Shown here: positions 12,266-42,454 of the stretch, piece after piece
Layout of the letters: every line of letters begins with the position of its first letter
How positions within the stretch are numbered: position 1 is the stretch's first letter
Source: an uncultured Bacteroidales bacterium
GTDB taxonomy: Bacteria; Bacteroidota; Bacteroidia; Bacteroidales; Bacteroidaceae
Direction of reading: 5' to 3'
Assembly (NCBI GenBank): GCA_902760965.1
Contig: CACWIN010000008.1
Span: 9,454-73,453 of the forward strand
Length of the DNA: 64,000 bases
The notes under the pieces: generated by a model
Databases searched by the model: none
Seen by the model: only the letters and a program-made list of their open reading frames with translations
Told to the model about the DNA's origin: nothing
Program-made: the position numbers and the translations under genes

Positions 12266-12388
12266 TGACACACTGCCGGCGTTAGCCGAAATACCAAACT
12301 CACATGATTTCTCATTCATGCCCTTGGCATAAATGAGTTTTGCAGGCGCGATTACGCCTGACAGAACTGTTTTGATTTTCATAAATTT

Positions 12389-12491: not shown

Positions 12492-12581
12492 TTTTACGTC
12501 TGCAAATTTCCGCATTCTACGCGACTCTGCAAAGTATTTTCTGCTAAAAAAGATAAATGTTTTAGCCAGTTTCCTTTCTGT

Positions 12582-12614
12582 AAAAGAAAACCGCTCCTCA
12601 ATAACGAGAAGCGG
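12582..12614 (-). terminator. intrinsic terminator of def
   Basis: The minus strand reads CCGCTTCTC-GTTATT-GAGGAGCGG followed by TTTTCTTTT. It lies 24 nt past the def stop. Confidence 0.8.
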
Positions 12615-12637
12615 CTTATATATGTTCATTTGGTTAT

Positions 12638-13300: not shown

Positions 13301-13397
13301 ATTTGTCCGTTTTTTTGCAAATATACTGCAAATGTGGAATAAACTGTTTCTTATTAGCGTCCCTGCTGAAATAGTTCGACTGAATAAAATTCCCAGT

Positions 13398-13643
13398 GAG
13401 CAAAGGTTTTCTTTTGCACGGAGCCGGACTATGCCCTTGGGGGACCATCAGTGCAGTGGCGTAAGCGTAGCCCCATGGAGGATCCCGTTAAGAACGGCGC
13501 CTCGTTTAACGACCGTTAAGCCCCGAAGGGGATTAAAAGGGAGGCGTTCGCCGTTTAGGGTCCGGAAGGGAGGCGGAGTAGCCACGGAACGTTGCGTCCC
13601 CAAAGGGCATAGTCCGGCGGAGTGTAAAAGAAAACCGCTCCTC
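13398..13643. repeat. 246-bp GC-rich element bounded by 48-nt imperfect inverted repeats (MITE-like element or structured RNA)
   Basis: The left arm (13398-13445) and the reverse complement of the right arm (13596-13643) match at 39 of 48 positions, including a 15+6 bp near-perfect block CCGGACTATGCCCTT.GGGGAC. The 150-nt core is full of local hairpins (CCGTT-AAG-AACGG, CCCC-GAA-GGGG, CGCCTC...GAGGCG). Confidence 0.7.
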
Positions 13644-25874: not shown

Positions 25875-26027
25875 ACGTATAGTCAAAACTGGGTATTTTG
25901 AGCTTTTACGGCTTATATTGAGTCATTTTATTACAGTTATATTACCTACTATATTATTTTTATTTTTATTTTTGCGCGGATATATGTGTGGATCCCTGTC
26001 CACCCAACCGGAATAATAAAGGACAAA

Positions 26028-28970: not shown

Positions 28971-29011
28971 TGTTCAATTTTTTTATTAACTTATCAACTA
29001 ATTAAAAAAAG

Positions 29012-30211
29012 ATGAAGAAGTTTTTATTTGTAGCCCTGGTTGCTGTATTTGCAGCATTCACGGCATGTAATGATGATGACAAGGAGGCACAGAAGTACCA
29101 GGTGACAGTAAAAATCACTTGTGACGAGGCTGAACTTTCATCAATGAGTTCAATTAAAGCCACTGCCGTTAGCGAATCAGGCTCAGTAACAACTGTTGAT
29201 GCACAGAATGGCGTTGCAATCCTGAAACTTGTAGCCGGCTCATACACAATTTCTGTTGTAGGAGATGCTGGCGCTTACAACTATGTAGGCTCCACCAGAT
29301 GCGTTGTTGCAGAGGCCGATGTTCCTAACCTGAAAGTATCTCTTATCAAATCAAAGCCTACTGGTAAGATTATCTTCAAAGAGGTATATTCAACAGGTGT
29401 AAAGAGTTTCTATTGGACTGACGGTTTCTATGAACTGTTTAACAACAGTGATGAGGTACAGTATCTTGACGGTATCATTATGGGTATTGTTCAGTGCGGT
29501 TACGGTGATGTCAGCAGTTGGGCTGATGATGAGGGCAATCTTCCTGACTACTATCCTATGGGTAACCATACCGTATTTTTCCCTGGTAGTGGAAACGAAT
29601 ATCCCGTTCAGCCCGGACAGAGCGTAGTTGTTGCAACCCGTGCCATAAACCATTCTGCACGTGAACTTGGAGAGAACGATTCTGTTTCTCCAGTGGATTT
29701 GAGTGCTGCAGATTGGGAAATATTCATCCCGACATCTGCTCAGGATACCGATAACCCGGATGTTCCTAACCTTGAGGTTGCTTATTCACAGTTCGGATTT
29801 GACTTTATGCCTGCTGTAAGCGGACAGGCTCTCATTCTTGCCAAACTTCCTGCTGATTCAACCATGGAAAGTTTTGTTGCAAATAATGCTCTGAAGCCCG
29901 AAGGTCAATACCGTGCAGCACTTTGCATTCCTTCAGAGTATGTAATTGACGCTGTTGACATTGTTTACTTCAATGAGGATCTTAAGAAGAGTAAGACAAT
30001 TCTTGATTTGGATGATTCAGGCTATACATACTATAGCGGTTCAGATGACGAGTGGACTGATCCTATGTATTGCGGTAAGAGCCTTCGCAGAAAGTGCGTA
30101 GGAGTCAGCAACGGCCGTGCATATTTCAAGGATACAAACAATTCATCTGATGACTTTATCCTTGGCGGACAGAAACCTGTTGTACGCAGAACATTTACAT
30201 CAGCTGATTAA
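29012..30211 (+). CDS. surface lipoprotein, DUF4876-like (Ig-like N-domain + lamin-tail-like domain)
   Basis: 399 aa with lipobox AAFTAC. The block IIFKEVYSTG...YELFNNSDEVQYLDG resembles the LTD-like core of DUF4876 proteins, which usually follow TonB receptors. This is recalled from memory and not verified. Confidence 0.45.
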   Translation: MKKFLFVALVAVFAAFTACNDDDKEAQKYQVTVKITCDEAELSSMSSIKATAVSESGSVTTVDAQNGVAILKLVAGSYTISVVGDAGAYNYVGSTRCVVAEADVPNLKVSLIKSKPTGKIIFKEVYSTGVKSFYWTDGFYELFNNSDEVQYLDGIIMGIVQCGYGDVSSWADDEGNLPDYYPMGNHTVFFPGSGNEYPVQPGQSVVVATRAINHSARELGENDSVSPVDLSAADWEIFIPTSAQDTDNPDVPNLEVAYSQFGFDFMPAVSGQALILAKLPADSTMESFVANNALKPEGQYRAALCIPSEYVIDAVDIVYFNEDLKKSKTILDLDDSGYTYYSGSDDEWTDPMYCGKSLRRKCVGVSNGRAYFKDTNNSSDDFILGGQKPVVRRTFTSAD

Positions 30212-30224
30212 TTGACTTATTATG

Positions 30225-30263
30225 CCGCAGAGCAGGAGTCTGCTCCTGCCCTGCGGTTTTATT
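30225..30263 (+). terminator. strong hairpin + T-tract inside the locus (terminator/attenuator)
   Basis: CCGCAG-A-GCAGGAG-TCTG-CTCCTGC-C-CTGCGG followed by TTTTATT, 14 nt after the stop of the DUF4876-like gene. Confidence 0.7.
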
Positions 30264-30299
30264 ACTTTTTTATTAAGGATATATTATTTGTATTAAGAT

Positions 30300-31904
30300 A
30301 TGAAAAAGCTTTCTACCGGATTATCACTGTTTGTAGTTGCATTAACTATGGCTACATTAACTCAAAAAGTTTCTGCCCAGGCAGAACGGAAGGTTGATCC
30401 TTGGTATCAGGATGGGCTTTTCATACATAATATCACATACGGTTCCATTAATCCCGCCAACATTGTCAACATCCCCTATTCCGGGCTTAATGACATTGTT
30501 GTATCATATTCAGGACAAAATGGAAAATACAGAGCATTTGACGATGGCGTGAAAACACGTTTGTTTGATGCCAATGTATTTGGTATCAGGAAATTTGAGA
30601 AACTCTCATTCAAGGGTAATATCAACTACTCCAATCACTATTCTGAGGACATGAGGTGGAATGCCACCGTTTTGACGTCAGAATTGAATCCGTTCCTTTT
30701 GGCTGACACTCTCAGGTATGATACCCTGACAAATGATGCAAGAACAGAATCATTTGTCATTGACGGTTCAGTTGCATATGACTTGAGCAACCGTCTGACA
30801 GTCGGAGTTTCAGCAAAATACACCGTTGCACATAAAGCCGACCAATCAGATCCCCGCATGAAGGCAAATGCAGCCAGAACAGCAATCATGCCCGGTATCA
30901 ATTGGAATGTGAACGGTACAATCACACTCGGCTTAGCCGGAATCGTTGAAATTTATCATGAAAATGATAAATCATCGGTTGAGGATAACATGATAGGCGA
31001 ACATAATAAGGTATATATATATAAAGGCCTTGGAGGCTATGAGGGCAAAGACGGTCTTGGCTATAACCGCAGGTATGACGGTCTGAAATTCGGAGGGTCT
31101 CTTAATTTTAATTTCTCTACCAACGGTTCATTTAAAAACTTTACTGAGTTCAAATTCGTTTCCAATTCTGAGAATGCTACAGACGGCGGAGATTCTTACA
31201 GTTACAAAGGCGGAGATTTCTCACAAACCACAATGGCTCTTAACAGCCGATTCGTGCTGGCCAGACCAAAAATTCAGCATAATCTTATAATTGAAGCCAG
31301 CATGGATAATTGTAAGGGGGAATGGTCCGTTCAAAAACAAGAGAGAGACGAATGGAAAATGATCAGGTATAATGTCACTTCAACTGAAACGATACATAAG
31401 GAGAATGACATGACTGCCGCACTGACATATAATGCAACATTCTTAAAGTCAGGCACGCCACACTTGTCTGTTTCAGCAACCGCAGCGTATAAGCAGGTTA
31501 GCGTAAAGCAGTTTCCTGATGAGAATCATGCAAAATATACCAAACTGAATGCCGGACTGGTCATCAATAAGAAATGGACTGCAAATAAGATGCGTTTCCT
31601 TACTGAAGTAAGTGGTGGAATGAATCATGCCCTTAAGCCTCTTGATATTTCAGTTTTAACAAATGAAGCGCCTTTAGAAAGATTTTATAAGGGATACTAT
31701 CTCCCCAAATACACATATCTTTCAGCCGAAGACTATTACGCATCCATACAGTTGGGAGCATCATATCCGCTTGCTCTTTTTTCAAGCAACGGATGGCTTA
31801 ATCTGACAGTTGATGCCTCTATCAGAAAGTATTCAGATAAAAGCCCAATTTTTAAGGATACTGACAAAAAGAATATAGGCCTGAAATTGAATTATACATT
31901 TTAA
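30300..31904 (+). CDS. outer-membrane beta-barrel protein (DUF6850-like)
   Basis: 534 aa with signal peptide ...TQKVSAQ and alternating strands. The C-terminus LKLNYTF ends in Phe, as in an OMP beta-signal. Confidence 0.55.
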   Translation: MKKLSTGLSLFVVALTMATLTQKVSAQAERKVDPWYQDGLFIHNITYGSINPANIVNIPYSGLNDIVVSYSGQNGKYRAFDDGVKTRLFDANVFGIRKFEKLSFKGNINYSNHYSEDMRWNATVLTSELNPFLLADTLRYDTLTNDARTESFVIDGSVAYDLSNRLTVGVSAKYTVAHKADQSDPRMKANAARTAIMPGINWNVNGTITLGLAGIVEIYHENDKSSVEDNMIGEHNKVYIYKGLGGYEGKDGLGYNRRYDGLKFGGSLNFNFSTNGSFKNFTEFKFVSNSENATDGGDSYSYKGGDFSQTTMALNSRFVLARPKIQHNLIIEASMDNCKGEWSVQKQERDEWKMIRYNVTSTETIHKENDMTAALTYNATFLKSGTPHLSVSATAAYKQVSVKQFPDENHAKYTKLNAGLVINKKWTANKMRFLTEVSGGMNHALKPLDISVLTNEAPLERFYKGYYLPKYTYLSAEDYYASIQLGASYPLALFSSNGWLNLTVDASIRKYSDKSPIFKDTDKKNIGLKLNYTF

Positions 31905-31907
31905 AAC

Positions 31908-34067
31908 GTGATAAAGAAATGCATTCTGTTACTTGCCGGCATATTATTTATCATTTCATGTCGGGAAAGCACAAGTGGTTTTGCAGTTATAATTGACCCC
32001 GAAAGTTACAATGAGGCTAAAGATGAAATAGAGGGGTATTTGACTACTGTTCAGAACCGCGGTCTCCACCCTATTCTGGTTATTGACCGTTGGGGAGTAC
32101 CTGACAGCATAAGAGCAGAACTCATCAGGCTATACAATGCCAAGGACTATCCTATTGAAGGCTGTGTATTCATAGGTGACATACCTATTGCACGCACACG
32201 TGACGCACAGCATTTTACCACTGCATTCAAGATGGACCAGGACGGTCAGTTTGACCGCACGGAGTTTACGGTTGCATCAGACCGTTTCTATGACTCATTT
32301 GAACTGCAGTGGGATTTTCTGGACCGTGATTCAGTGCGCCCGGAGTATTTCTATTATCATTTACGTTCAGACTGTCCCCAAAGGCTCAGGCCCACTATTT
32401 ATTCTGCACGCATAATGCCCAGAACCAATGATCTGGGTAACAAATATGACAAACTGCGCCGTTATATGCAGCGCGTAAACAAAGCCGATGAACAGAATAA
32501 TCCGTTAGACAGGATGTTCTACTTTAGCGGCTACGGATATGTATCAGAATCTGTTGATGCACGCATTGATGAGAAAGCGGAGCATTATGATCATTTCCCG
32601 TGGATGAAGGGGCAACAGACAACAATAACATACCTTGATTACAAGCGTGAACCGTTCGTAAAGAAGCGTTTCATGACAGAGTTGCAGATGCCTGAATATG
32701 ACTGGGCTGTGCCACATCATCACGGCAGCCCTGACATTGAGCACCTGAGTGATATGCCCGTAGGATCAGATTATTATGAGGCTATTGATTGGATTAAGGA
32801 GTATATCCTTTCACAGGTAGCTAAAGGCAAAGCCAAGGGGCGCAGTATGGATGTCATTAAAAAGGCCATAAACGATGCATACGAATGCACATTCCCTGAC
32901 GAATGGTTCAAGGGTGAGCCTACATATAATTTTGAAAAGGAACGCAACCTTTATTATTCTGATTTCAAGGATTTCCATCCGCAGGTGCGCATGGTCACAC
33001 TGGACGGATGTTACAACGGATCATTCCACCAGGATGAAAGCATACAGGAGGGTTATCTCTTTGGCGAAGGCAACGGAACCCTGGTTGTAATGGGAAATAC
33101 CGTCAATGTGTTGCAGAATAAGTGGGTATGTCACTTTATGGGTATTGTTGGCTTGGGCGCCCGTGTAGGCAACATGGCCAAATATGGCGCATATCTTGAA
33201 GCACACCTGTTTGGTGATCCCACATTCGCATTCACACCCGGCGCCGACTGCGGTTTTGACATCAACCAGGCACTGCTCAACAACGATCCTGCTTTCTGGA
33301 AAAAACAACTTGACAGTGAGTTTACCGCCCTGCAGATTATGGCCATGGACAAACTGGCCGATAGTGAAGGCAACTATTCTGACCTTATTTTCAACAAGTT
33401 CTGCACTTCAAAATCAGGAATTGTACGCCAGGCTGCACTTGAGGAACTCAAAAAGTATCGTGATGACAATTACGTGAACGCAATTATTCTGGCACTGAAT
33501 GATTCACATGAAATGACACAACGTTTTGCTGTAATCCAGGCTGGAGACTGTGGTGACAGCCGTGTCATTGAGCCCCTGGTTAAACTGTATTGCGCAAACA
33601 CCTTGCCTGAACGCGTAGAATATTCCATATCAGGAAGCATTGAGATACTTGACTCAACACTTGTAATGAAGGCTTTTGATGAGTATTTCCCTACTCTTAC
33701 ATTCTACAATAATGCAGACAGTGTGTATAAGGCTAAACGCAAGGCTCTTAACCGCATATGCACCCGTAGGGTCAGAAACGTGGAAAATACCATATTCAAT
33801 CCAGAAGAGGATGCGTATGACCGCAAAATGACTCTGCGTACCACCCGCAATTACAATTACCACATATTGGTACCTAAGGAATTGGAATATTTGAGCAATC
33901 CTGATGATGTTACCCTGCAGACCATAATGTGGGAGGCATTGGGATGGTATGTAACATCATATCAGGCACCTGCCATTGCAGAACTTGCATTAAAGGTCGC
34001 CAATGATGAACGCTTTGACAGTAAGGTACGCGATGAAGCTTTGAAAACATATAACAGAGTAAAATAA
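31908..34067 (+). CDS. paralog 1 of 4: lipoprotein with gingipain/C25-like (clan CD) His-Cys domain and C-terminal HEAT-like repeats
   Basis: 719 aa with a GTG start 3 nt after the upstream stop and lipobox LFIISC. The N-terminal block AVIIDPESYNEAKDEIEGYL...IEGCVFIGDIPIA resembles the C25 N-terminal subdomain. The HHHG His is at codons 270-272, and the Cys of LDGCYNGSF is codon 368 (33009-33011). The C-terminal VRQAALEEL...HEMTQRFAV repeats are HEAT-like. Confidence 0.55.
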   Translation: MIKKCILLLAGILFIISCRESTSGFAVIIDPESYNEAKDEIEGYLTTVQNRGLHPILVIDRWGVPDSIRAELIRLYNAKDYPIEGCVFIGDIPIARTRDAQHFTTAFKMDQDGQFDRTEFTVASDRFYDSFELQWDFLDRDSVRPEYFYYHLRSDCPQRLRPTIYSARIMPRTNDLGNKYDKLRRYMQRVNKADEQNNPLDRMFYFSGYGYVSESVDARIDEKAEHYDHFPWMKGQQTTITYLDYKREPFVKKRFMTELQMPEYDWAVPHHHGSPDIEHLSDMPVGSDYYEAIDWIKEYILSQVAKGKAKGRSMDVIKKAINDAYECTFPDEWFKGEPTYNFEKERNLYYSDFKDFHPQVRMVTLDGCYNGSFHQDESIQEGYLFGEGNGTLVVMGNTVNVLQNKWVCHFMGIVGLGARVGNMAKYGAYLEAHLFGDPTFAFTPGADCGFDINQALLNNDPAFWKKQLDSEFTALQIMAMDKLADSEGNYSDLIFNKFCTSKSGIVRQAALEELKKYRDDNYVNAIILALNDSHEMTQRFAVIQAGDCGDSRVIEPLVKLYCANTLPERVEYSISGSIEILDSTLVMKAFDEYFPTLTFYNNADSVYKAKRKALNRICTRRVRNVENTIFNPEEDAYDRKMTLRTTRNYNYHILVPKELEYLSNPDDVTLQTIMWEALGWYVTSYQAPAIAELALKVANDERFDSKVRDEALKTYNRVK

Positions 34068-34084
34068 CAAAAACAATACGGAAA

Positions 34085-36076
34085 ATGAAAAAATGTGCAT
34101 TGATACTGACAATAGTAGCAGGAATCATGTTTTCGGCATGCACTCACAAGGTGCAATCAGGTTTAGCAGTAGTAATTGATCCAAAAAGTTACAATGAAGC
34201 CAAGGCTGAAATTGACCGCTATCTTGAAGTTGTTGAAAGCCGCGGTCTATACCCCATCCTTGTTATTGACCGCTGGGGTATCCCTGACAGCATACGTGAA
34301 GAACTTATAAGGCTTCACAACGACAAGGATCATCCGATTGAAGGTTGTGTCCTTATTGGAGACATACCGGTTCCGATGGTTCGTGACGCACAGCATATGG
34401 CAAGCGCATTCAAGATGGATCAGGACCGTTTTCCAAGGATTGAGTCACATATCCCGTCAGACCGTTTCTATGACTGCTTTGACCTTAAGTTTGACTATAT
34501 AGATCAGGATTCTTCACGCTGGTATTACTACAGTCTGCGTGCCGATTGTGCACAGAGACTTGCCCCAACCATATATTCAGCCCGTATTACACCGCGTGAC
34601 AATGAGCGTGGAGAACGTTATGAGAAACTGCGCCGTTACATGCAACGCGTGAATGAGGCTGACAGCAAGCAGAACAAACTGGACCGTGTATTGATGTTCG
34701 GCGGTGACGGAAACCTGTCCGGATCATTTGCAGCCCGCACGGATGCCAAAATGGAGTTTTACGAGCAGTTCCCATGGATGAGAGATCAGCAACTCTCTGT
34801 TGTTTATGTTGATTATACTCGTGACAAATTCATCAAAACACGTCTCACGGATGAACTTCAGGATCCGCGTACGGACTATGCCCTGCTCTCACATCATGGA
34901 GACCCCACTATTCAGTATCTGAGCGGCACAAGAGACCCGCGTGACATATTGCAGACATTTGAATTCAGTCATTATCATCCACAAACTCCCCTGGTCTCAC
35001 TTGACGCCTGCTACAACGGCTCTTTCCACCTGGATGACAACATTCAGGAGTCTTATCTGTTCGGTGAGGGTAACGGTACTCTGCTTGTACTTGCAAACAG
35101 TGTCAATGCCATTCAAGACAAATGGGTGAACCGCTATACAGGTCTTTTGGGATTGGGCATGCGTGCAGGATTCCTCTCCAAACTGGGTACATTCATGGAA
35201 TTTCACCTGTTTGGTGACCCCACCTACGCATTTGTCAAGTCTGCAGACTGCGGTTTTGATGTAAATGATGCCATTAATTATGCTCCTGACACATTCTGGT
35301 CAAAACAATTGAACAACCAGTATCCGGCCATACAAGGGTTGGCTACACACATGCTTGCATTGAACGGGCAACAATGGTCTGATGCAATATATCAGAAATT
35401 CATCACATCAGAGAGCAGCATTGTACGTCTGTCTTGCCTTATGGAGCTGGCTCCGTTCAGAGATGAGAACTTCATTAAGTGCGTAATTGCCTCATTGAAT
35501 GATGAGCATGAAATGACACAGCGCTTTGCTGTACTCTATGCAGGTAAAAGCGGTCATCCAGCCTTTGTAGAACCTATTTCACAGTTGCGTTGTGACAACA
35601 ACCTGAGTGAAAGGGTTGATTTTGACCTGGATAATGTGTTACGCAGTTTTGACTCCACGGCCGTTTACAATGCGGTTAATGCTTATCTGACAAAAGTCAA
35701 CTACCATGCAAATCCTGACAGTGTAATTAAGGCTATAAACGCAAACCTTGAGTATTATGCCGGACATCAGGCTTTTGACATTACAAAAGCTCTCAACAGC
35801 ACAAAAGCAAGCCAAAACAGTAAAATGAATGCTATCCACAGCATGCGTAACAATCCGCCTCACTACTACACTGATGCAATTCTGGAGTATCTGGGATCAT
35901 ATGCACCTGCTGAGGATTCTGTTATACAGCGTGCCACATGGGAAGCCATTGGTTGGTTCGATATGTCATACCGTGCACCGGATATTGCAGCACTTGCACT
36001 GAAGGTGTCACAAGACGGCAAATACCCTGTAACAGTTCGTAAAGAAGCACTTAAAACATATAATCGCACAAAATGA
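34085..36076 (+). CDS. paralog 2 of 4 (shortest; lacks the helical insert between His and Cys)
   Basis: 663 aa with lipobox IMFSAC. It has the same conserved blocks (SHHG ... LDACYNGSFH ... HLFGDPTYAF ... HEMTQRFAV). Only about 40 aa separate the His and Cys motifs. Confidence 0.55.
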   Translation: MKKCALILTIVAGIMFSACTHKVQSGLAVVIDPKSYNEAKAEIDRYLEVVESRGLYPILVIDRWGIPDSIREELIRLHNDKDHPIEGCVLIGDIPVPMVRDAQHMASAFKMDQDRFPRIESHIPSDRFYDCFDLKFDYIDQDSSRWYYYSLRADCAQRLAPTIYSARITPRDNERGERYEKLRRYMQRVNEADSKQNKLDRVLMFGGDGNLSGSFAARTDAKMEFYEQFPWMRDQQLSVVYVDYTRDKFIKTRLTDELQDPRTDYALLSHHGDPTIQYLSGTRDPRDILQTFEFSHYHPQTPLVSLDACYNGSFHLDDNIQESYLFGEGNGTLLVLANSVNAIQDKWVNRYTGLLGLGMRAGFLSKLGTFMEFHLFGDPTYAFVKSADCGFDVNDAINYAPDTFWSKQLNNQYPAIQGLATHMLALNGQQWSDAIYQKFITSESSIVRLSCLMELAPFRDENFIKCVIASLNDEHEMTQRFAVLYAGKSGHPAFVEPISQLRCDNNLSERVDFDLDNVLRSFDSTAVYNAVNAYLTKVNYHANPDSVIKAINANLEYYAGHQAFDITKALNSTKASQNSKMNAIHSMRNNPPHYYTDAILEYLGSYAPAEDSVIQRATWEAIGWFDMSYRAPDIAALALKVSQDGKYPVTVRKEALKTYNRTK

Positions 36077-38268
36077 TTTCATTAAAGAATTACATATTTG
36101 TCATTATTGCTTCAGTTTGTTTGTTTTCATGTTCCAATGCAAAAAGAGACGGTTTTGCAGTAGTTATTGACAAACAAAGTTACTCTGAGGCAAAAACTGA
36201 GATAGACGGCTATCTCAAGACAGTTGAGAAACGAGGACTCCACCCAATCCTTGTGATAGACCGCTGGGGTATTCCTGACAGCATACGCGCCGAACTGATA
36301 AGGCTATACAATGCAAAATCCAATCCTATAGAAGGATGTGTGTTCATTGGTGACATCCCAGTTGCCAAGGTACGTGACGCACAGTTCCTTACCAGCGCAT
36401 TCAAGATGGACCAGGGTGGCCGTAACGCAATGGCAGACTATTGCGTATCTACAGACCGTTTTTATGATTCATTTGACCTGGAGTGGGATTTCATTCAGCA
36501 GGATCCTGACCGGAAGGAATACTTTTATTATTCCCTGCGCAATGACTGCGCCCAGAAACTGCGTCCCACCATTTACAGCGCACGCATATTCCCGCGTACC
36601 AACGCCCGTGGCGACAAGTATGAAAAACTGCGTCGCTACATGCAGCGTGTAAACCAGGCCGATGCCAACAACAACCCCATTGACAACGTACTCTCATTTG
36701 GAGGTCACGGCAATGTATCGGACTCATGGGAGGCCCGTATGGACGAAAAGATTGAGATGTATGACCAGATGCCCTGGATGCGCCGTCAGCAGAAAGGCAT
36801 AATGTACATTGATTTCCGTCATGATGATTTCATAAAGGAGCGTCTTACCACCCAGCTGCAGATTCCTGAGCTGGATTATGCAGTTCTGCACCATCATGGC
36901 AGCGAGGAGGAGCAGCTGCTGTCAGGCTACCCCGTAACTTCATCCCTGCCCGTTGATATGGATAACGCCCGCCGTTATGCTCACTCACAGACACGCTCAT
37001 ACCTTAATCGCGGACGCACATTGGCCGAGGCTAAAAAGAGCATTGAGACATACTTGCGTTCACCCATCCCCGATGAATGGGTAAAAGAGGCCAACAACCC
37101 TGATGTGATTGCTGCCGATGAGGCTTACTCATATGCACAGGACCTGCATGTAGCCGAATTCAGCAACTTTCACCCTCAGGTCCGTATGGTATCGCTCGAT
37201 GCATGCTACAACGGCTCATTCCATGTAGACGAGAGCATCCAGGAGGCATATCTGTTTGGTCAGGGCAACGGTACCCTGATTGCCATAGCCAATACCGTTA
37301 ACTCAATTCAGGACCGCTGGATAAATCGTTATCTGGGTATGTTGGGTATGGGTTTGAGAGTGGGTTACGTTGCCGTGTTCAACAATACTCTTGAGAACCA
37401 TGTATTTGGTGATCCCACATTTGCTTTCACTCCTGCCGCAGATCCCGGTTTTGACGTTAACGAGGCCGTTAAGGACCATTCATCAAAATTCTGGAAAAAA
37501 CAGCTTGACAACCCCTATCCTGCCGTTCAGGTCCTGGCCTGCTATATGCTTGGCCAGAAATGTGACGGTAACTGGAACAGCCTGCTGCTTGACAAGTTCA
37601 AGACATCTCCATACGGCATGGTACGTCTGGCCGCACTGCTTGAGCTTGGCGAGAACCGCAGTGACGAGCTTGTTGAATGCATAAAACTTGGTATTAATGA
37701 CGGCAACGAGATGACTCAGCGCTTTGCTGTACTTCTGGCCGGAGACTGCGGTGACAAATCACTTGCCGAGACTCTGGTAAGACTCTATTGCGAGAACACA
37801 CAGCCGGACAGAGTCCGTTTTGACCTTACCAGCACTACCTTCAGATCATTTGATTCGGTATCGGTTGTATCAGCATTTGAAAGAGTGTTCCCCGAGTATA
37901 CATTCTACAACAACCCCGACAGTGTAGGAAACGTAATACGCCGTAATCTGATAAGCACTACCACATCAATGACCAGTGACTTTGACGAGGAGGTACTGTC
38001 AGACAAATATTCCGAAAAGAACCGCATATCAAACATACGCTCCATGCGCAACTACCCCGTTCACGAACTGGTTCCGGTAATGCTTAAGTATCTGTCCGAA
38101 CCTAAAGAACCGGCTATCCAGGAGGCAATGTGGGAGGCATTGGGTTGGTTTGAACTCTCATATCAGGCTCCGCTCATTGCAGCCAAAGCAAAGGACGTTA
38201 TGGATGACGAGCGTTATGACAAGGCGGTTCGCTACCAGGCACAAAGAGCATATAACAGACTTAAATGA
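36073..38268 (+). CDS. paralog 3 of 4
   Basis: 731 aa. Its start overlaps the paralog 2 stop (ATGA). Lipobox CLFSC, with HHHG ... LDACYNGSFH ... HVFGDPTFAF ... NEMTQRFAV. Confidence 0.55.
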   Translation: MISLKNYIFVIIASVCLFSCSNAKRDGFAVVIDKQSYSEAKTEIDGYLKTVEKRGLHPILVIDRWGIPDSIRAELIRLYNAKSNPIEGCVFIGDIPVAKVRDAQFLTSAFKMDQGGRNAMADYCVSTDRFYDSFDLEWDFIQQDPDRKEYFYYSLRNDCAQKLRPTIYSARIFPRTNARGDKYEKLRRYMQRVNQADANNNPIDNVLSFGGHGNVSDSWEARMDEKIEMYDQMPWMRRQQKGIMYIDFRHDDFIKERLTTQLQIPELDYAVLHHHGSEEEQLLSGYPVTSSLPVDMDNARRYAHSQTRSYLNRGRTLAEAKKSIETYLRSPIPDEWVKEANNPDVIAADEAYSYAQDLHVAEFSNFHPQVRMVSLDACYNGSFHVDESIQEAYLFGQGNGTLIAIANTVNSIQDRWINRYLGMLGMGLRVGYVAVFNNTLENHVFGDPTFAFTPAADPGFDVNEAVKDHSSKFWKKQLDNPYPAVQVLACYMLGQKCDGNWNSLLLDKFKTSPYGMVRLAALLELGENRSDELVECIKLGINDGNEMTQRFAVLLAGDCGDKSLAETLVRLYCENTQPDRVRFDLTSTTFRSFDSVSVVSAFERVFPEYTFYNNPDSVGNVIRRNLISTTTSMTSDFDEEVLSDKYSEKNRISNIRSMRNYPVHELVPVMLKYLSEPKEPAIQEAMWEALGWFELSYQAPLIAAKAKDVMDDERYDKAVRYQAQRAYNRLK

Positions 38269-38272
38269 CAAT

Positions 38273-40486
38273 ATGAACAGAATCAAATCTTTATATCATA
38301 GCATACTTGAAGCAGCAGGTTTGCTGCTCCTGGTATCTTGCGGCCAAACCAAACCCGGTTTTGCAATAATCATTGATCCTCAAAGCTACATTGAGGCTCA
38401 GGCAGAGATAAACCGTTATCTGGAGGTAGTTGAAAGCCGTGGTTTGCACCCGTTCCTGGTCATTGACAGTTGGGGAGTTCCGGACAGCATACGCGCAGAG
38501 CTGATGCGTCTGCACGCTGACCGCAGATATCCTATTGAGGGATGTGTGCTCATAGGCGATATCCCCGTAGCAATGGTTCGCGATGCGCAGCATTTTACTA
38601 CAGCGCTCAAGATGGACCAGTTCAATCCGTCGTTCAGCCGTAATGAATACTGTGTCCCTTCGGACCGTTTCTATGACTGTTTTGACCTTAAGTTTGACCT
38701 TATTGAACAGGATTCGGCCCGCAGTGAGTATTTCTTTTACTCACTTAGAGGCGACTGCCCGCAGCGTCTGCGCCCCACCATTTACAGTGCACGCATTATG
38801 CCGCGTGACAACGAGACCGGCAGCAAATATGACAAACTGCGCCGATACATGCAGCGCGTGAATGAGGCCGACAGTAACAACAACCCTCTGGACCGCATGT
38901 TCTACTTTAGCGGTGAAGGTTACATATCAGAATCGGTCGATGCACGTATTGACGAAAAGATAGAGTTGTATGACCAGTTCCCCTGGATGCGTACCCAGCA
39001 GCAGTCCATTGAGTATATAGACCACAAGAGGGAAAAGTTCGTAAAGAACCGCCTCATGCAGCAGATGCAGTACCGTGATGTGGATTTTGCCATACTCCAC
39101 CATCATGGAGCATTTGACACAGAGTACCTGAGCGTTTACCCCGAGGCCGAGACTATGATTGAGGATGTAGCCATGATGCGCCGCTTTATGCGTGAGCAGA
39201 TGCGCGAGGGCAACCGCAAGGGCATGAGCAAGCAGGAGGTGATGCGCCGCATCAACAACTACTTTGGCTGCGAGGTGCCCGAATCATGGTATAAGGGTGC
39301 ACTTGACCCTGAACAGATAGCCCGTGACGAGCAGGACGACATAGATGAGGAGAACAACATTAACCTGCATTTCTCCGATTTCACATACTATCACCCCCAG
39401 GTGCGCATGGTATCACTGGACGGTTGCTACAACGGATCTTTCCATCGTGACGAGAGCATTCAGGAGGGATACCTGTTTGGTAAGGGCAACGGTACCATAG
39501 TAGTTATGGCCAATACCGTAAACGTGCTGCAGGATAAATGGGCCGACCATTTTATAGGTCTTATGGGAATTGGAATGCGTGCCGGCCGTATGGCTCAGTT
39601 CGGAGCATTCATGGAGCAGCACATATTCGGTGACCCCACTTTCAGCTTTACACCTGCCGTGAAGACCGGTTTTGACGTGAATGACGCCATCAACAATGCC
39701 GATGACGGTTTCTGGAAGAAACAGCTCAAGAGCGGCAGCCCCGCCATGCAGATACTGGCACTTGATATGCTTGCCAACAGCAACACAAACTATTCTGACC
39801 TCATGGCCGATAAGTTCAAGACATCCAATTCCGGTATAGTACGTCTTGCCGCGCTCATGGAGCTGTCCGGCTACCGTGACGAGAACTTTGTGGAGTGTCT
39901 GGCCATGGCCCTTGATGACAGCCACGAAATGACTCAGCGCCTTGCAGTAAACATGGCTGGCCGCTCCGGTGACGAGCGCCTCATACCCGGACTGGTACGT
40001 ATTGCATCAAAGAACAACACCTCAGAGCGTATAGAATTTGACGTGACAAATGCGTTCCATACATTTGATTCCACTATGGTTCTCAATGAATTTGACCGAT
40101 ACTTCCCCACCGTGGACTGCTATCTTGACCATGACAGCATTGGAGGTCTTATCCGTAAAGCCTTGCACAGCTTTACCACATCAATCACCGATGAGGTAAA
40201 TACAAGGCTGTTTGACACCACGCTTACACAGACCCAGCGTAAAGCCGGCGCCCGTGCCCTGCGTAACAATCCCGTACACAGCATGATACCGCAGTTGCTT
40301 GAACTGCTTGACAATCCCGATGAGGATGACCTGATACTTACCGTACTGTGGGAGGCAATGGGTTGGTATGACCTGTCATACCGTGCCGATGAGATAGCTG
40401 CGGCCGCACTTAAGACCAGCACCGATGAGAGATTTTCCGAAAGAGTAAGAAATGAAGCACTAAAAACATACAACAGACTGCAATGA
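38273..40486 (+). CDS. paralog 4 of 4
   Basis: The ORF opens at 38150 inside paralog 3, but the lipoprotein signal MNRIKSLYHSILEAAGLLLLVSC begins at the ATG at 38273, 5 nt after the paralog 3 stop. It has HHHG ... LDGCYNGSFH ... HIFGDPTFSF ... HEMTQRLAV. Confidence 0.55.
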   Translation: MNRIKSLYHSILEAAGLLLLVSCGQTKPGFAIIIDPQSYIEAQAEINRYLEVVESRGLHPFLVIDSWGVPDSIRAELMRLHADRRYPIEGCVLIGDIPVAMVRDAQHFTTALKMDQFNPSFSRNEYCVPSDRFYDCFDLKFDLIEQDSARSEYFFYSLRGDCPQRLRPTIYSARIMPRDNETGSKYDKLRRYMQRVNEADSNNNPLDRMFYFSGEGYISESVDARIDEKIELYDQFPWMRTQQQSIEYIDHKREKFVKNRLMQQMQYRDVDFAILHHHGAFDTEYLSVYPEAETMIEDVAMMRRFMREQMREGNRKGMSKQEVMRRINNYFGCEVPESWYKGALDPEQIARDEQDDIDEENNINLHFSDFTYYHPQVRMVSLDGCYNGSFHRDESIQEGYLFGKGNGTIVVMANTVNVLQDKWADHFIGLMGIGMRAGRMAQFGAFMEQHIFGDPTFSFTPAVKTGFDVNDAINNADDGFWKKQLKSGSPAMQILALDMLANSNTNYSDLMADKFKTSNSGIVRLAALMELSGYRDENFVECLAMALDDSHEMTQRLAVNMAGRSGDERLIPGLVRIASKNNTSERIEFDVTNAFHTFDSTMVLNEFDRYFPTVDCYLDHDSIGGLIRKALHSFTTSITDEVNTRLFDTTLTQTQRKAGARALRNNPVHSMIPQLLELLDNPDEDDLILTVLWEAMGWYDLSYRADEIAAAALKTSTDERFSERVRNEALKTYNRLQ

Positions 40487-42057
40487 AAATATTATATAAG
40501 ATAATATTGTCTGCTCTATTTATTTGTCAGCCAGGAATAACGTATGCTCAGTTAGCCATACGTCCTGGTACCGTCTTGCCGGAGCTGGAACTGAAGAGTT
40601 CCCTTAAGTCTCCTGTAAGAAACGGTAATAATACTGATTTTCCGACATATATTGACAACTCTCTTTCGCCGTATTTCCCCGCCATTATTAATCAACATGG
40701 CGGTTCATGCGCACAAGCATCAGGGGTTCACTATCTTTTCACATATGAAATGAACAGAGTGTTGGAAAGAGAAGTCGCTTCAAATCCAAAAGAAAACACA
40801 TTCAGTTACCGTTATACATGGAATTTTCTCAATGAAGGAAAGGATAACGGGTCTCATGCCAGTGATGGTGTAAATCTGATATTGCATCACGGATGCGTTA
40901 CGGCAGCAGATTATGGAGATGAGGATGAATATGTTTACCGTTGGGTGACCGGATACTCCAAGTATTACAATGCCATGCATTATAAGGTAACTAAGGCAAG
41001 TTCCGTTAACCTGAAAGAACGTTCCGGTATTGAGAAACTGATGCAATATATGATTGACAAGGGTGATGGTCATCCTGGTGGAGGAATAGCATCATTTTCA
41101 TTAACCGGGAATTGGGATAAGACTAATTATGACGGACCATCAGAAGCCGGTATTGAATATATAATGGTACCAAGAGGAAGTGGCGGTTCTCATGCCATGA
41201 CACTTATCGGATATGATTTATCAGTAGAATTTGACTGCGATAACGATGGAAAAATAGATGATGATGAAAAAGGTGCCTTCATTTTTGTGAACAGTTGGGG
41301 AACATGGTGGGCAACCGGAGGAAAGGCATACATGCCTTTTTCAGGATTCACCAGAGAACTTGGAGATGGAGGATTTTACAAGTATGACTCACATGCCGAA
41401 GTCCTTTGTATAGAAACAGCCTATCATGAACCCACTTTGACTATGGAAATAAATATGACATATGATTCCAGAAATGATCTGACTCTAAGTATTGGAGTGG
41501 CAGATGGAATTCAGGAAAATACTCCAAAATATGCTGTATATCCTGTAATAGTCAAAGCTCAAGGCGGAGATTTGAGAATGCAAGGAACAAACTTTGATTC
41601 AGGAAAAACAATTGAAATGGGTTTTGACATCTCAGAACTTAAGTCGAAAGCAGATGAGATGAAAGCCCCCTGTTGGTTCTTTACAGTGTACAAAACGCAG
41701 TTAGGTAAAAACGGTACAGGAAAAGTGAATAAAATTGCAATACATGATTATAGTTCCGGACAAGATAATGTTATTTCTCAAACATTTATAAAATCAAATA
41801 CTATTCAAGTGGGCAGCAACAAATACAAGTTACCTACAAAAGAATGGTACATGGACAATAAAGGGAACTGGTTTAAAGTGGTTATGACACCTGCAAATAA
41901 ATATGTATCAAATTCAGATTATTTGAAAAAATTTGAATGGAATAAGATTTATGGTATCAGAAAGGCTAATGGAGGATATGCAAAAATTAAGTTTACTGAC
42001 TATAACCCCCAAACCGGCAAAGTGAAATTCTCAGTTAATAACTATGAATACAAATAG
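40483..42057 (+). CDS. secreted papain-like (C1 family) cysteine peptidase with extra C-terminal domain
   Basis: 524 aa with start overlapping the upstream stop (ATGA) and a signal peptide ending TYAQ. The catalytic triad context is present: NQHGGSCAQASG (Cys), GGSHAMTLIGYD (His) and FVNSWGTWW (Asn-Ser-Trp). Confidence 0.65.
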   Translation: MKILYKIILSALFICQPGITYAQLAIRPGTVLPELELKSSLKSPVRNGNNTDFPTYIDNSLSPYFPAIINQHGGSCAQASGVHYLFTYEMNRVLEREVASNPKENTFSYRYTWNFLNEGKDNGSHASDGVNLILHHGCVTAADYGDEDEYVYRWVTGYSKYYNAMHYKVTKASSVNLKERSGIEKLMQYMIDKGDGHPGGGIASFSLTGNWDKTNYDGPSEAGIEYIMVPRGSGGSHAMTLIGYDLSVEFDCDNDGKIDDDEKGAFIFVNSWGTWWATGGKAYMPFSGFTRELGDGGFYKYDSHAEVLCIETAYHEPTLTMEINMTYDSRNDLTLSIGVADGIQENTPKYAVYPVIVKAQGGDLRMQGTNFDSGKTIEMGFDISELKSKADEMKAPCWFFTVYKTQLGKNGTGKVNKIAIHDYSSGQDNVISQTFIKSNTIQVGSNKYKLPTKEWYMDNKGNWFKVVMTPANKYVSNSDYLKKFEWNKIYGIRKANGGYAKIKFTDYNPQTGKVKFSVNNYEYK

Positions 42058-42454
42058 ATATATAATAGTAATCCTGCTTTTTGTCATGTCGGCTTTTTTT
42101 GCATGCAAAAAAGAAAAAGATGAAAAGATTCCAGTTCAAACAACCAATGAAATGGAACTTACCCTTGAACCCGGGAAATGGGTTTATTACAGGTTCTCTG
42201 ACAGTACGGTGGTAGGGAAAAGCATCATAGGTAATTCTAACGATGACAAAGAATGGTATGACCGTATGGATTGGGACATAGCATTGAGCGAAAACGGCAT
42301 TCGCACCAACAGCGGAGAATCCGGTCGTGGTTATGGAGGCATCTGCTATATTGACAATGAAACATTTTATGAAGACTCATATAGTCATTTATCTTCAATT
42401 TATTATATGGTTGATACTCTAAATGTACCAATAGTGGTGCCTATTGACAGATAA
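42044..42454 (+). CDS. small lipoprotein with HmuY-like WDIA...NSG motif
   Basis: 136 aa with lipobox AFFAC, overlapping the upstream gene by 14 nt. The block MDWDIALSENGIRTNSGESG recalls the HmuY-family signature, but the protein is shorter than typical HmuY. Confidence 0.35.
   Translation: MNTNRYIIVILLFVMSAFFACKKEKDEKIPVQTTNEMELTLEPGKWVYYRFSDSTVVGKSIIGNSNDDKEWYDRMDWDIALSENGIRTNSGESGRGYGGICYIDNETFYEDSYSHLSSIYYMVDTLNVPIVVPIDR

What the first reader, a model, noticed from the sequence alone, without database searches (positions are those of the whole stretch)
31908..40486. Fourfold tandem array of about 700-aa lipoproteins with a conserved clan-CD-like His/Cys dyad and HEAT-like tail
All four proteins share long identical blocks:
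- RGLHPILVIDRWG[VI]PDSIR.ELIRL
- IEGCV[FL]IGDIP
- DRFYD[SC]F[ED]L
- PTIYSARI.PR
- Y[DE]KLRRYMQRVN.AD
- HHG
- LD[AG]CYNGSFH
- IQE.YLFG.GNGT
- H.FGDPT[FY].F
- HEMTQR[FL]AV
- EA[LMI]GW[YF]

A hydrophobic strand followed by HG, then a hydrophobic strand followed by [AG]C, is the caspase/gingipain (clan CD) catalytic signature. The N-terminal 90 aa look like the C25 N-terminal subdomain. Paralogs 1, 3 and 4 carry a variable helical insert of about 70-100 aa between His and Cys that paralog 2 lacks. The C-terminal roughly 250 aa resemble PBS-lyase/HEAT repeats. A C25 fold fused to HEAT repeats, present four times in tandem, is not an architecture I know. The retained dyad in all copies argues for activity, or at least purifying selection, rather than decay.
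Basis: partly seen in the sequence, partly recalled or inferred. Interest (0 to 1): 0.8.

Follow-up and report, generated by a model that had tools for sequence, protein, structure and literature searches.

The report
Four gingipain-fold/HEAT proteins in iron-uptake operon
Four tandem genes encode uncharacterised proteins that join a gingipain-type cysteine-protease fold to a HEAT-repeat tail, and they are a lineage-specific expansion of a normally single-copy gene in a widespread Bacteroidota outer-membrane uptake operon whose B. thetaiotaomicron and P. gingivalis versions are induced by iron or haem shortage.

Summary
Four co-directional ORFs (719, 663, 731 and 737 aa; 51-56% identical) fill 31908-40486.

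The fold reading holds. AlphaFold models (pLDDT 89-90) hit gingipain RgpB first in Foldseek (E 4e-8, prob 1.0). Close orthologues of paralog 2 pass Pfam's Peptidase_C25 cutoff. The conserved His and Cys align with RgpB His211 and Cys244. The tail is a PBS-type HEAT_2 domain. All four copies have dN/dS of 0.04-0.13.

New points:
- **Operon:** the gene is a core part of a conserved operon (TonB-dependent receptor, DUF4876 lid, DUF6850, C25/HEAT), directly upstream in 47 of 50 testable loci. A papain-like peptidase and a HmuY-like lipoprotein often follow.
- **Regulation:** related loci (BT1933-39, PG1019-22) are induced by iron or haem limitation.
- **Copy number:** most genomes have one or two copies. 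Four is a lineage-specific expansion.
- **Insert:** the helical insert between His and Cys is ancestral, and paralog 2 lost it.
- **Location:** most relatives have plain signal peptides, and the window copies lack an acidic export signal. Unlike the fast-diverging surface components, they are well conserved. I therefore infer a periplasmic location.

Catalysis, substrate and location are untested. This is a new variant of a known kind.

The parts
25986..28970 (+). TonB-dependent receptor and first gene of the operon. The true start is probably a downstream ATG (MKTFGTMKYIRIAV...).
   Evidence: Pfam CarbopepD_reg_2, Plug and TonB_dep_Rec_b-barrel. It lies directly upstream of the family, together with DUF4876 and DUF6850, in 47 of 50 loci.
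29012..30211 (+). DUF4876 lipoprotein, the predicted surface lid of the receptor. The residues after the lipid-attachment Cys (CNDDDKE) form an acidic export signal.
   Evidence: Pfam DUF4876, E 1.4e-36. DUF4876 proteins are predicted lids of BT1939 and BT3633 in bioRxiv 10.1101/2023.03.17.533168.
30300..31904 (+). DUF6850 protein with a type I signal peptide and a C-terminal ...NYTF, read here as a likely outer-membrane beta-barrel.
   Evidence: Pfam DUF6850, E 1.8e-66. Synteny is conserved. The barrel reading is my inference from the sequence ends; no structure was predicted.
31908..34067 (+). Paralog 1 (719 aa), C25-like domain plus HEAT_2 tail. Lipobox Cys18; His272 at 32721-32723; Cys368 at 33009-33011.
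34085..36076 (+). Paralog 2 (663 aa), lacking the helical insert. Lipobox Cys19; His271 at 34895-34897; Cys309 at 35009-35011.
   Evidence: AF2 pLDDT 89. Foldseek to RgpB at E 4e-8. Orthologues pass the Pfam C25 cutoff. hhalign mapping to RgpB.
36073..38268 (+). Paralog 3 (731 aa). Its start overlaps the paralog 2 stop by 4 nt. His275 at 36895-36897; Cys378 at 37204-37206.
38273..40486 (+). Paralog 4 (737 aa; corrected start ATG 38273), the copy closest to single-copy relatives. His278 at 39104-39106; Cys385 at 39425-39427; four-helix insert at residues 286-372.
   Evidence: AF2 pLDDT 89.8. Foldseek to RgpB at E 4.7e-7. It is the best tblastn match of most single-copy loci.
40483..42057 (+). 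Papain-like (C1-type) cysteine peptidase homologue with a type I signal peptide and a C-terminal HmuY-like beta domain. Its start overlaps the paralog 4 stop by 4 nt.
   Evidence: Q71, C76, H237, N270 and W272 are invariant in 15 relatives. A PDB profile search hits Lpg2622 (3.9e-8), the 3ois cysteine protease, SERA5 and falcipain-3. A weak Pfam HmuY match covers residues 445-514. It lies downstream of the family in 41 of 65 loci.
42044..42454 (+). Small HmuY-like lipoprotein (136 aa). The residues after the lipid-attachment Cys are CKKEKDEK; relatives have CSSDSD-type export signals.
   Evidence: Pfam HmuY, E 2.8e-7, 31.2 bits against a cutoff of 27. N-termini of relatives. The Bacteroides sp. 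locus L076 has HmuY in the same position.

Best explanation
Each of the four genes encodes a two-domain protein.

**Domains.**
- The N-terminal 440 or so residues have the gingipain (MEROPS C25, clan CD) fold with both subdomains. A His-Gly follows one strand and an Asp-Ala/Gly-Cys follows the next, in the positions of RgpB His211 and Cys244.
- There is no prodomain and no type IX secretion C-terminal domain.
- The C-terminal 270 or so residues are PBS-type HEAT repeats. Judging from the high pTM, they pack as a fixed platform against the catalytic domain.

**Proposed function.** I propose a cysteine hydrolase, a peptidase or amidase, that works on the periplasmic side of the outer membrane. 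In this lineage it is lipid-anchored there. It would be the fourth core component of a conserved, iron/haem-limitation-type TonB-dependent uptake module (receptor, DUF4876 surface lid, DUF6850 protein, C25/HEAT protein). It would process the imported cargo or a partner protein, with the HEAT domain holding the substrate or partner.

**Origin of the four copies.** They arose by tandem duplication inside one rumen and hindgut Bacteroidaceae lineage. Each has since been kept as a separate orthologue group under strong purifying selection, so they have probably diverged in substrate or partner.

**Shown:**
- the fold;
- invariance of the dyad;
- the HEAT domain;
- operon membership;
- duplication history;
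- purifying selection.

**Inferred:**
- catalytic activity;
- periplasmic location;
- iron/haem regulation of this particular locus;
- the nature of the substrate.
For: **Fold**
- Foldseek puts RgpB first for two independent models.
- Orthologues pass the Pfam PF01364 cutoff.
- Motifs match RgpB in the same order: GD..IP, H-G, A-C-x-N-G-x-F, W, FGDP (on the RgpB sequence verified).

**Conservation**
- The His, Gly, Asp and Cys are invariant in alignments A2 and A3.
- The C25 domain is the most conserved part: 34-50% of columns are invariant across 32 orthologues, against 16% in the HEAT domain.
- dN/dS is 0.04-0.13.

**Operon**
- Gaps between genes are -14 to 88 nt.
- The same gene order is found in 47 of 50 loci, from Prevotella and Muribaculaceae to Prolixibacteraceae and Flavobacteriaceae, and in a Bacteroides sp. 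contig.

**Iron link**
- BT1933-39 (TonB-dependent receptor, DUF4876, HEAT repeat protein) rises 3.5-7.4-fold under iron limitation, and PG1019-22 rises 21-214-fold (PMC10434189).
- The P. gingivalis DUF4876 gene falls with excess hemin, together with hmuY (PMC10470040).
- HmuY-like domains are encoded in the operon.

**Location**
- Most relatives have a type I signal peptide that ends directly before the first strand.
- The window copies have a lipobox followed by neutral or basic residues and only about a 6-residue tether.
- DUF4876 and the HmuY-like protein carry acidic export signals.
- No T9SS sorting domain is detected.
- Against close relatives, the receptor, lid, DUF6850, C1-like and HmuY-like genes are only 35-59% identical. 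The paralogs are 76-95% identical and the flanking genes 78-99%.

**Duplication history**
- The NJ tree shows four orthologue groups within one clade.
Against: - No biochemical evidence for catalysis exists for any family member.
- The window's own four sequences do not reach Pfam C25 at E below 1.
- A profile of the N-domain finds no gingipain by sequence in the PDB. The residue-level mapping therefore rests on a statistically weak hhalign alignment (E 0.0035-0.019), supported by fold and motif agreement.
- Equivalents of RgpB Glu152 and Asp163 could not be assigned with confidence.
- Absence of a recognisable export signal does not exclude surface exposure. BtuG2 is surface-exposed without one.
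- DUF6850 could be a dedicated exporter.
- The link to BT1936 rests on matching annotation and synteny, not on a sequence comparison made here.
- Iron regulation of this rumen organism's locus is untested.
Confidence: 0.55

Rival explanations
1. Surface-exposed gingipain-like proteases. The lipoproteins are flipped to the cell surface, possibly through the DUF6850 protein. There they degrade host or dietary iron- or haem-carrying proteins, so that the HmuY-like proteins and the receptor can capture the released ligand. This is the gingipain/HmuY/HmuR logic compressed into one operon.
For: - The fold is gingipain-like.
- All four window copies have lipoboxes.
- The operon holds surface components and HmuY-like domains.
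- Lack of a scored export signal is not decisive, as BtuG2 shows.
Against: - Most family members are not lipoproteins and have no T9SS C-terminal domain.
- There is no acidic export signal, and the tether is only about 6 residues.
- The paralogs do not share the rapid divergence and low G+C of the predicted surface genes in the same operon.
Confidence: 0.2
2. Non-catalytic binding or scaffold protein (a pseudo-protease). In this reading the conserved His cluster (HHHG) and Cys bind a metal or tetrapyrrole, or the domain only docks partners. The HEAT domain acts as in PBS-lyase-type proteins, or as the repeats next to Raptor's caspase-like domain. The protein would shuttle or hold the imported ligand in the periplasm.
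For: - The context is iron and haem.
- A conserved run of three His precedes the Gly, and a further His follows the Cys motif.
- The HEAT_2 and NblB-like similarity belongs to a repeat class used by bilin lyases.
- Raptor, a caspase-like domain next to helical repeats, appears as a weak full-length Foldseek match (prob 0.44).
Against: - The invariant residues are exactly those of the clan CD catalytic geometry: His-Gly after one strand and Ala-Cys-x-Asn-Gly-x-Phe after the next. They align with RgpB.
- The first two His of HHHG vary (paralog 2 has SHHG), while the catalytic one does not.
- The NblB score is 22 bits against a cutoff of 300.
Confidence: 0.18
3. Transpeptidase or sortase-like enzyme. 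Like the C25 homologue PorU, the enzyme would cleave a partner protein and transfer it to an acceptor, for example to mature or anchor another product of the operon.
For: PorU is a C25-fold protein that matches RgpB by sequence in the PDB. The operon encodes several secreted partners.
Against: Nothing ties this family specifically to PorU. No conserved cleavage motif was found in the partners. The minimal four-gene loci lack the C1-like and HmuY-like genes.
Confidence: 0.07

Closest known systems
Gingipains RgpB and Kgp (MEROPS C25, clan CD; Pfam PF01364) of Porphyromonas gingivalis
   Same: - Both have the two-subdomain alpha/beta fold.
- The dyad order is His then Cys, with the motifs H-G and A-C-x-N-G-x-F and a terminal FGDP.
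- Both are linked to a Bacteroidota haem/iron economy.
   Different: - This family has no N-terminal prodomain, no Ig-like domain and no T9SS C-terminal domain.
- It carries a C-terminal HEAT domain instead.
- A four-helix insert of about 65 residues lies between His and Cys in the ancestral form.
- It has a type I or lipoprotein signal with a predicted periplasmic location.
- It is encoded inside a TonB-dependent receptor operon.
- Sequence similarity is so low that only insert-free members pass Pfam's cutoff.
PorU (C25-like sortase of the type IX secretion system)
   Same: Both have a C25 fold used for something other than bulk proteolysis, and both act in the Bacteroidota cell envelope (one search lists 6za2 as an RgpB relative).
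   Different: PorU is a surface-located T9SS component of about 1150 aa with other domains. No link to T9SS was found here.
Eukaryotic clan-CD-fold plus helical-repeat proteins: separase, and Raptor with its caspase-like domain
   Same: All combine a caspase/gingipain-type fold with ARM/HEAT-type repeats in one chain. Raptor gives a weak full-length Foldseek match (prob 0.44).
   Different: - They are eukaryotic and cytosolic.
- The repeat types are unrelated.
- In separase, from my own knowledge, the domain order is reversed.
- There is no evidence of common descent of the fusion.
BT1939-BT1938 and PG1019-PG1022 type loci (DUF4876-lidded TonB-dependent transporters)
   Same: The gene order matches the window's locus: receptor, DUF4876 lipoprotein, then, in B. 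thetaiotaomicron, a 'HEAT repeat domain-containing protein'. These loci are induced by iron limitation and are called uncharacterised transport systems.
   Different: Those loci are described with one HEAT-repeat gene at most, and its C25 fold has not been noted in the papers I could read. The window has four copies.
PBS-lyase HEAT-like repeat proteins (Pfam HEAT_2; CpcE/F, NblB, YibA, the alphaRep scaffold)
   Same: The repeat type is the same: HEAT_2 at 28-41 bits, alphaRep at E down to 5e-24, and YibA and deoxyhypusine hydroxylase among the Foldseek hits.
   Different: The NblB equivalog model scores 22 bits against a cutoff of 300. There is no evidence of bilin or metal binding. Here the repeats are an appendage of an enzyme fold.

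Membership tests
Peptidase family C25 (gingipain family, clan CD) | Caspase/gingipain-type alpha/beta fold with both the N-terminal (A) and catalytic (B) subdomains | tested here: met
   RgpB (1cvr/4ief) is the top Foldseek hit for both models: E 4e-8 and 5e-7, prob 1.00, TM on target 0.53-0.57, over 412-484 columns.
Peptidase family C25 (gingipain family, clan CD) | Match to the Pfam PF01364 profile above the gathering score | tested here: inconclusive
   The window's four proteins give no hit at E below 1. Orthologues 77-86% identical to paralog 2 score 27-33 bits against a cutoff of 23 and cover profile positions 46-371 of 374. In all, 18 of 62 relatives match at E up to 0.1.
Peptidase family C25 (gingipain family, clan CD) | Catalytic dyad: His-Gly after one beta-strand, then Ala-Cys after the next | tested here: met
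   The AF2 model of paralog 2 has strand 265-268 followed by H271-G272, and strand 303-306 followed by D307-A308-C309. These residues are invariant in 62 and in 29 relatives. They align with RgpB His211-Gly212 and Ala243-Cys244. The alignment on its own is statistically weak.
Peptidase family C25 (gingipain family, clan CD) | S1 pocket and third residue (RgpB Asp163 and Glu152 equivalents) | tested here: inconclusive
   One greedy hhalign run pairs D220 with Asp163 and W347 with Trp284, but the posterior support is low.
Peptidase family C25 (gingipain family, clan CD) | Peptide-bond hydrolysis that depends on the Cys | not testable with these tools
   This needs recombinant protein, activity-based probes and mutants.
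Gingipains proper (secreted virulence proteases) | N-terminal inhibitory prodomain and a T9SS C-terminal sorting domain | tested here: not met
   The mature protein starts about 6 residues before the first strand of the A subdomain. NCBIfam finds no T9SS sorting domain. The models end in a HEAT helix.
PBS-lyase-type HEAT repeats (Pfam HEAT_2) | Tandem helical hairpins that match the HEAT_2 profile | tested here: met
   The four copies score 27.7-41.3 bits against a cutoff of 27.7. All 62 relatives match. alphaRep proteins match at E 5e-24.
Phycobilisome degradation protein NblB / bilin lyases | Equivalog-level match to NF045915 | tested here: not met
   The score is 22.1 bits against a cutoff of 300, for paralog 4 only.
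Surface-exposed Bacteroidota lipoproteins | Lipobox followed by an acidic lipoprotein export signal | tested here: not met
   A lipobox is present, but the residues after the Cys are RESTSG, THKVQS, SNAKRD and GQTKPG. The neighbouring DUF4876 has NDDDKE, and relatives of the HmuY-like protein have SSDSD. Absence of the signal is not proof of a periplasmic location.
DUF4876-lidded TonB-dependent transporter loci (BT1939 / PG1020 type) | Co-directional receptor, DUF4876 and DUF6850 genes immediately upstream | tested here: met
   This holds in the window, in 47 of 50 loci with enough flank and in Bacteroides sp. L076.
DUF4876-lidded TonB-dependent transporter loci (BT1939 / PG1020 type) | Induction by iron or haem limitation | not tested
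   Known only from the literature on B. thetaiotaomicron and P. gingivalis. There are no expression data for this organism.

The most novel reading that the evidence does not exclude
A gingipain-fold enzyme in the periplasm is an obligatory step of a previously unrecognised kind of TonB-dependent iron/haem acquisition. The receptor imports a peptide- or protein-bound ligand. The C25/HEAT enzyme, helped where present by the papain-like/HmuY-like protein, cleaves the carrier to free the ligand. Tandem expansion to four or five paralogs widens the range of carriers that rumen and hindgut Bacteroidaceae can exploit.
Probability: 0.2. Interest if true: 0.8.

Novelty: new variant of a known kind. 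Interest (0 to 1): 0.58.

Why it matters
The receptor/DUF4876 loci are among the genes most strongly induced by iron or haem limitation in P. gingivalis, and they are also induced in B. thetaiotaomicron. Even so, they are still called uncharacterised transport systems.

This work shows that their 'HEAT repeat protein' is a conserved gingipain-fold protein with an invariant Cys/His dyad, usually accompanied by a second, papain-like cysteine peptidase homologue. That gives the system a concrete, testable biochemical handle in genetically tractable species.

It also extends the C25 family beyond secreted virulence proteases and the T9SS sortase, to a probably periplasmic, nutrient-uptake-linked branch with a new domain architecture.

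Tried and rejected
- **PDB sequence search with N-domain profiles.** The search returned only HEAT proteins or nothing, so sequence alone does not reach gingipains.
- **Default hhalign against RgpB.** It aligned only the A subdomain at low probability. A greedy local alignment was needed, and I treat it as supportive only.
- **Sigma-70 promoter and terminator scan.** It was uninformative for this organism. Its repeated 'terminators' are just the conserved KLRRYMQRVN coding block on the opposite strand.
- **Literature.** Searches for BT1936/BT1937 and for C25 together with HEAT found nothing on this architecture.
- **Cluster look-up.** It did not tie any homologue to B. thetaiotaomicron by accession.
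- **Pseudogenisation.** Rejected for the window copies, given intact ORFs and low dN/dS.
- **Recent gene conversion.** Rejected, because DNA identity between copies is at most 85%.
- **Bilin-lyase identity of the tail.** Rejected on the NblB score.
- **Upstream and downstream neighbours as parts of the system.** The pheS-like, HhH-GPD, serine dehydratase, hexapeptide transferase and pgk-like genes are housekeeping genes and not part of it.

Full report
**1. Observation**

Four co-directional ORFs fill the stated interval:
- 31908-34067 (719 aa)
- 34085-36076 (663 aa)
- 36073-38268 (731 aa)
- a fourth ending at 40486

The fourth ORF's mechanical TTG start at 38150 overlaps paralog 3. The credible start is ATG 38273 (737 aa), which restores a signal peptide and lipobox like those of the others.

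The proteins are 51-56% identical to paralog 1, and mean column identity is 67%.

At the DNA level the shared blocks are only 63-85% identical. The array is therefore old and is not being homogenised. All four have lipoboxes. The His-Cys spacing is 95, 37, 102 and 106 residues.

**2. What the protein is**

*The tail.* Pfam sees only HEAT_2 in the window's proteins, at residues 436-585 depending on the copy. A PDB sequence search with their profile returns alphaRep/HEAT and armadillo designs. The HEAT-like tail is confirmed.

*The N-terminal part.* It needed structure prediction.
- I made a 62-sequence alignment from 937 database relatives.
- With it, AlphaFold2 gave a confident model of paralog 2: pLDDT 89.0, pTM 0.89.
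- Its best PDB matches by Foldseek are gingipain R structures 4ief and 1cvr: E 4e-8, probability 1.00, TM-score 0.55-0.57 on the target, over 412-418 columns. HEAT proteins follow.
- A second model, of paralog 4, has pLDDT 89.8 and pTM 0.87. It gives the same top hits at E 5e-7.

*Sequence support from relatives.*
- Among the 62 relatives, 18 match Pfam Peptidase_C25, with a best E of 1.5e-9.
- Orthologues 77-86% identical to paralog 2 score 27-33 bits against the curated cutoff of 23. They cover almost the whole profile.

*Mapping the catalytic residues.*
- I verified the RgpB sequence against the PDB and aligned family profiles to it with hhalign.
- The default alignment covers only the N-terminal subdomain.
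- Greedy local alignments with two different family profiles extend over the whole domain, and both give the same pairs.

| Paralog 2 residue or motif | RgpB equivalent |
|---|---|
| H271-G272 | His211-Gly212 |
| A308-C309 | Ala243-Cys244 |
| N311, G312, F314 | Asn246, Gly247, Phe249 |
| W347 | Trp284 |
| F376-G-D-P379 | Phe339-Gly-Asp-Pro342 |

- These alignments are weak statistically (E 0.0035-0.019). They agree with the model, where strand 265-268 precedes H271 and strand 303-306 precedes C309.
- The His, Gly, Asp and Cys are invariant in the 62 full-length relatives. They are also invariant in 29 N-domains from diverse Bacteroidota at 35-59% identity.

Catalysis itself remains untested.

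**3. The insert**

In paralog 4 the segment between His and Cys forms four confidently predicted helices within residues 286-372. Most single-copy relatives have a His-Cys gap of 93-100 residues. The insert is therefore the ancestral state.

The orthologue group of paralog 2 lost it, as its sister L013_c2 still has a gap of 99. Several upstream extra copies in Prevotellaceae lost it independently. With the insert gone, the spacing (34-44) is close to RgpB's 32, which explains why only these members pass Pfam's C25 model.

**4. Genomic context**

The array sits in a tightly spaced operon, with gaps of -14 to 88 nt. Its genes, in order:
- a TonB-dependent receptor;
- a DUF4876 lipoprotein;
- a DUF6850 protein;
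- the four paralogs;
- a 524-aa protein;
- a 136-aa HmuY-like lipoprotein.

The 524-aa protein is a papain-like homologue. Gln71, Cys76, His237, Asn270 and Trp272 are invariant in 15 relatives. Its profile hits the Legionella C1-type protein Lpg2622 (3.9e-8), the 3ois cysteine protease, SERA5 and falcipain-3. Its C-terminus shows weak HmuY similarity.

The flanking genes are housekeeping genes.

*Related loci.* A scan of species-representative genomes found at least 544 stretches that encode relatives, and I fetched 75 loci. They came from:
- Prevotella
- Muribaculaceae
- Odoribacter
- Rikenellaceae
- Prolixibacteraceae
- Maribellus
- Flavobacteriaceae

*Synteny.*
- Receptor, DUF4876 and DUF6850 lie directly upstream in 47 of 50 loci with enough flank.
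- The papain-like gene follows in 41 of 65.
- A Bacteroides sp. contig has the single-copy form of the same six-gene locus.
- In one Prolixibacteraceae locus, the downstream genes encode an ABC ATPase and a DUF4857 protein. These are also components of the iron-induced BT3625-33 cluster.

*Family size.* An exhaustive HMMER scan with the N-domain profile found 473 representative proteins at E up to 1e-3, and 228 at E up to 1e-30. Nearly all are 650-750 aa long. The C25-like domain of this type therefore occurs essentially only in this architecture.

**5. Literature**

- DUF4876 proteins are predicted surface lids of the non-SusC transporters BT1939 and BT3633. Their proximity to the receptor is conserved in 81 and 59 genera respectively (bioRxiv 10.1101/2023.03.17.533168).
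- Under iron limitation, BT1933-39 rises 3.5-7.4-fold. It is listed as TonB-dependent receptor, DUF4876 protein, HEAT repeat domain-containing protein and hypothetical proteins. PG1019-22 rises 21-214-fold (PMC10434189).
- The P. gingivalis DUF4876 gene is repressed by excess hemin together with hmuY (PMC10470040).
- PG1019 and PG1020 are called an uncharacterised transport system (PMC13096392).
- I found no paper that notes a C25 fold in these loci.
- That BT1936 belongs to this family is my inference from annotation and synteny.

**6. Copy number and selection**

Arrays lying fully inside a fetched locus have these copy numbers:

| Copies | Loci |
|---|---|
| 1 | 29 |
| 2 | 25 |
| 3 | 1 |
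| 4 | 7 |
| 5 | 2 |

- A neighbour-joining tree puts the window's four paralogs in one clade, confined to rumen, horse and related Bacteroidaceae genomes.
- Within that clade each paralog forms its own orthologue group across at least seven genomes.
- The two-copy state of Prevotellaceae is a separate duplication.
- Against orthologues, dN/dS is 0.04-0.13 for every paralog, in the C25 domain, the HEAT domain and the insert. None of the window's copies is decaying.
- Across 32 orthologues, the C25 domain has 34-50% invariant columns. The HEAT domain has 16% and the insert 9%.
- The few paralog-specific fixed differences include sites 4-7 residues after the catalytic His and 33-60 residues after the Cys.

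**7. Location (inferred)**

- Most relatives have a type I signal peptide that is cleaved directly before the first strand.
- Members of the window clade and of Prolixibacteraceae have a lipobox, followed by neutral or basic residues and only about six residues of tether.
- The neighbouring DUF4876 (CNDDDKE) and the HmuY-like proteins (CSSDSD-type) carry typical acidic export signals.
- No T9SS sorting domain is detected.

An independent observation fits this. The comparison below is with the closest relatives, L002-L004.

| Genes | Identity to the window's copy |
|---|---|
| Flanking genes | 78-99% |
| The four paralogs | 76-95% |
| Receptor | 55-59% |
| DUF4876 | 45-47% |
| DUF6850 | 35-36% |
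| Papain-like | 46-50% |
| HmuY-like | 44-49% |

The fast-diverging genes also have lower G+C, 0.40-0.42 against 0.45-0.50. Rapid turnover is expected for exposed components and not for periplasmic ones.

Two caveats remain. Absence of a scored export signal does not prove retention in the periplasm. DUF6850 could be an exporter.

**8. Mechanism**

The best-supported model is a Cys/His hydrolase of gingipain fold with a fixed HEAT platform. It would act on the periplasmic side as the fourth core part of an uptake module of the iron/haem-limitation type. It would process imported cargo or a partner protein. The four paralogs would have diverged in specificity.

The rivals are:
- a surface protease that harvests haem or iron, as gingipains do;
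- a non-catalytic ligand-binding or scaffold protein;
- a PorU-like transpeptidase.

The evidence here cannot settle the substrate.

**9. Novelty**

The fold families are known. The following are not described in the literature I could search:
- the combination of a C25 fold without prodomain or sorting domain, a helical insert between the catalytic residues and a HEAT tail;
- the probable periplasmic location;
- the fixed place in a TonB-dependent receptor operon.

Public annotation calls these proteins only 'HEAT repeat domain-containing protein'. I rate it a new variant of a known kind. It is of moderate to good interest, because it gives a testable handle on a strongly iron-regulated but uncharacterised uptake system.

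Noticed in passing
window 25986-31904 and 40483-42454, compared with 31908-40486 and the flanks: Conservation within the operon is mosaic. Against the closest relatives (L002-L004), the receptor, DUF4876, DUF6850, papain-like and HmuY-like genes are only 35-59% identical and have low G+C (0.40-0.42). The four paralogs are 76-95% identical and the flanking genes 78-99%. This suggests rapid diversification or allelic replacement of the exposed components.
   Followed up: partly
window 40483-42057: An unannotated papain-like cysteine peptidase homologue with an invariant Gln/Cys/His/Asn/Trp set and a C-terminal HmuY-like domain. No Pfam C1 match was found; a PDB profile search detected the relationship. 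The operon therefore encodes a second, unrelated cysteine-peptidase fold.
   Followed up: partly
window 42044-42454: A 136-aa HmuY-like lipoprotein whose start overlaps the preceding gene by 14 nt. It is much shorter than classical HmuY, and only the N-terminal part of the HmuY profile matches.
   Followed up: no
L017, L022, L044, L046, L051, L041, L061, L037 (upstream copies) and the paralog 2 group: The helical insert between the catalytic His and Cys has been lost several times independently in extra copies. Nearly every locus keeps at least one copy with the insert.
   Followed up: partly
L006 1906-3940; L050 about 12271-13620; L057 12002-13717; P0121 and P0122: Possible decay or assembly errors in relatives. 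Paralog 3 is split into two ORFs in L006, the second copy of L050 has an in-frame stop, and a copy in L057 is truncated at 571 aa. Two database representatives of about 1400 aa look like fusions of two tandem copies.
   Followed up: no
L062 12190-14985: In a Prolixibacteraceae genome the family gene is followed by an ABC ATPase, a 222-aa protein and a DUF4857 protein. The ABC ATPase and DUF4857 are also components of the strongly iron-induced BT3625-33 cluster of B. thetaiotaomicron. This hints at a shared inner-membrane step.
   Followed up: no
window 38150-38272: The listed ORF start of paralog 4 (TTG 38150) is an artefact of the first-start rule. It would add 41 residues that overlap the end of paralog 3.
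   Followed up: yes
L020, L026, L034 record titles: Some loci that carry this Bacteroidota operon are labelled Oscillospiraceae, Clostridiaceae or Pseudoflavonifractor. These are probably binning or labelling errors in the source assemblies.
   Followed up: no
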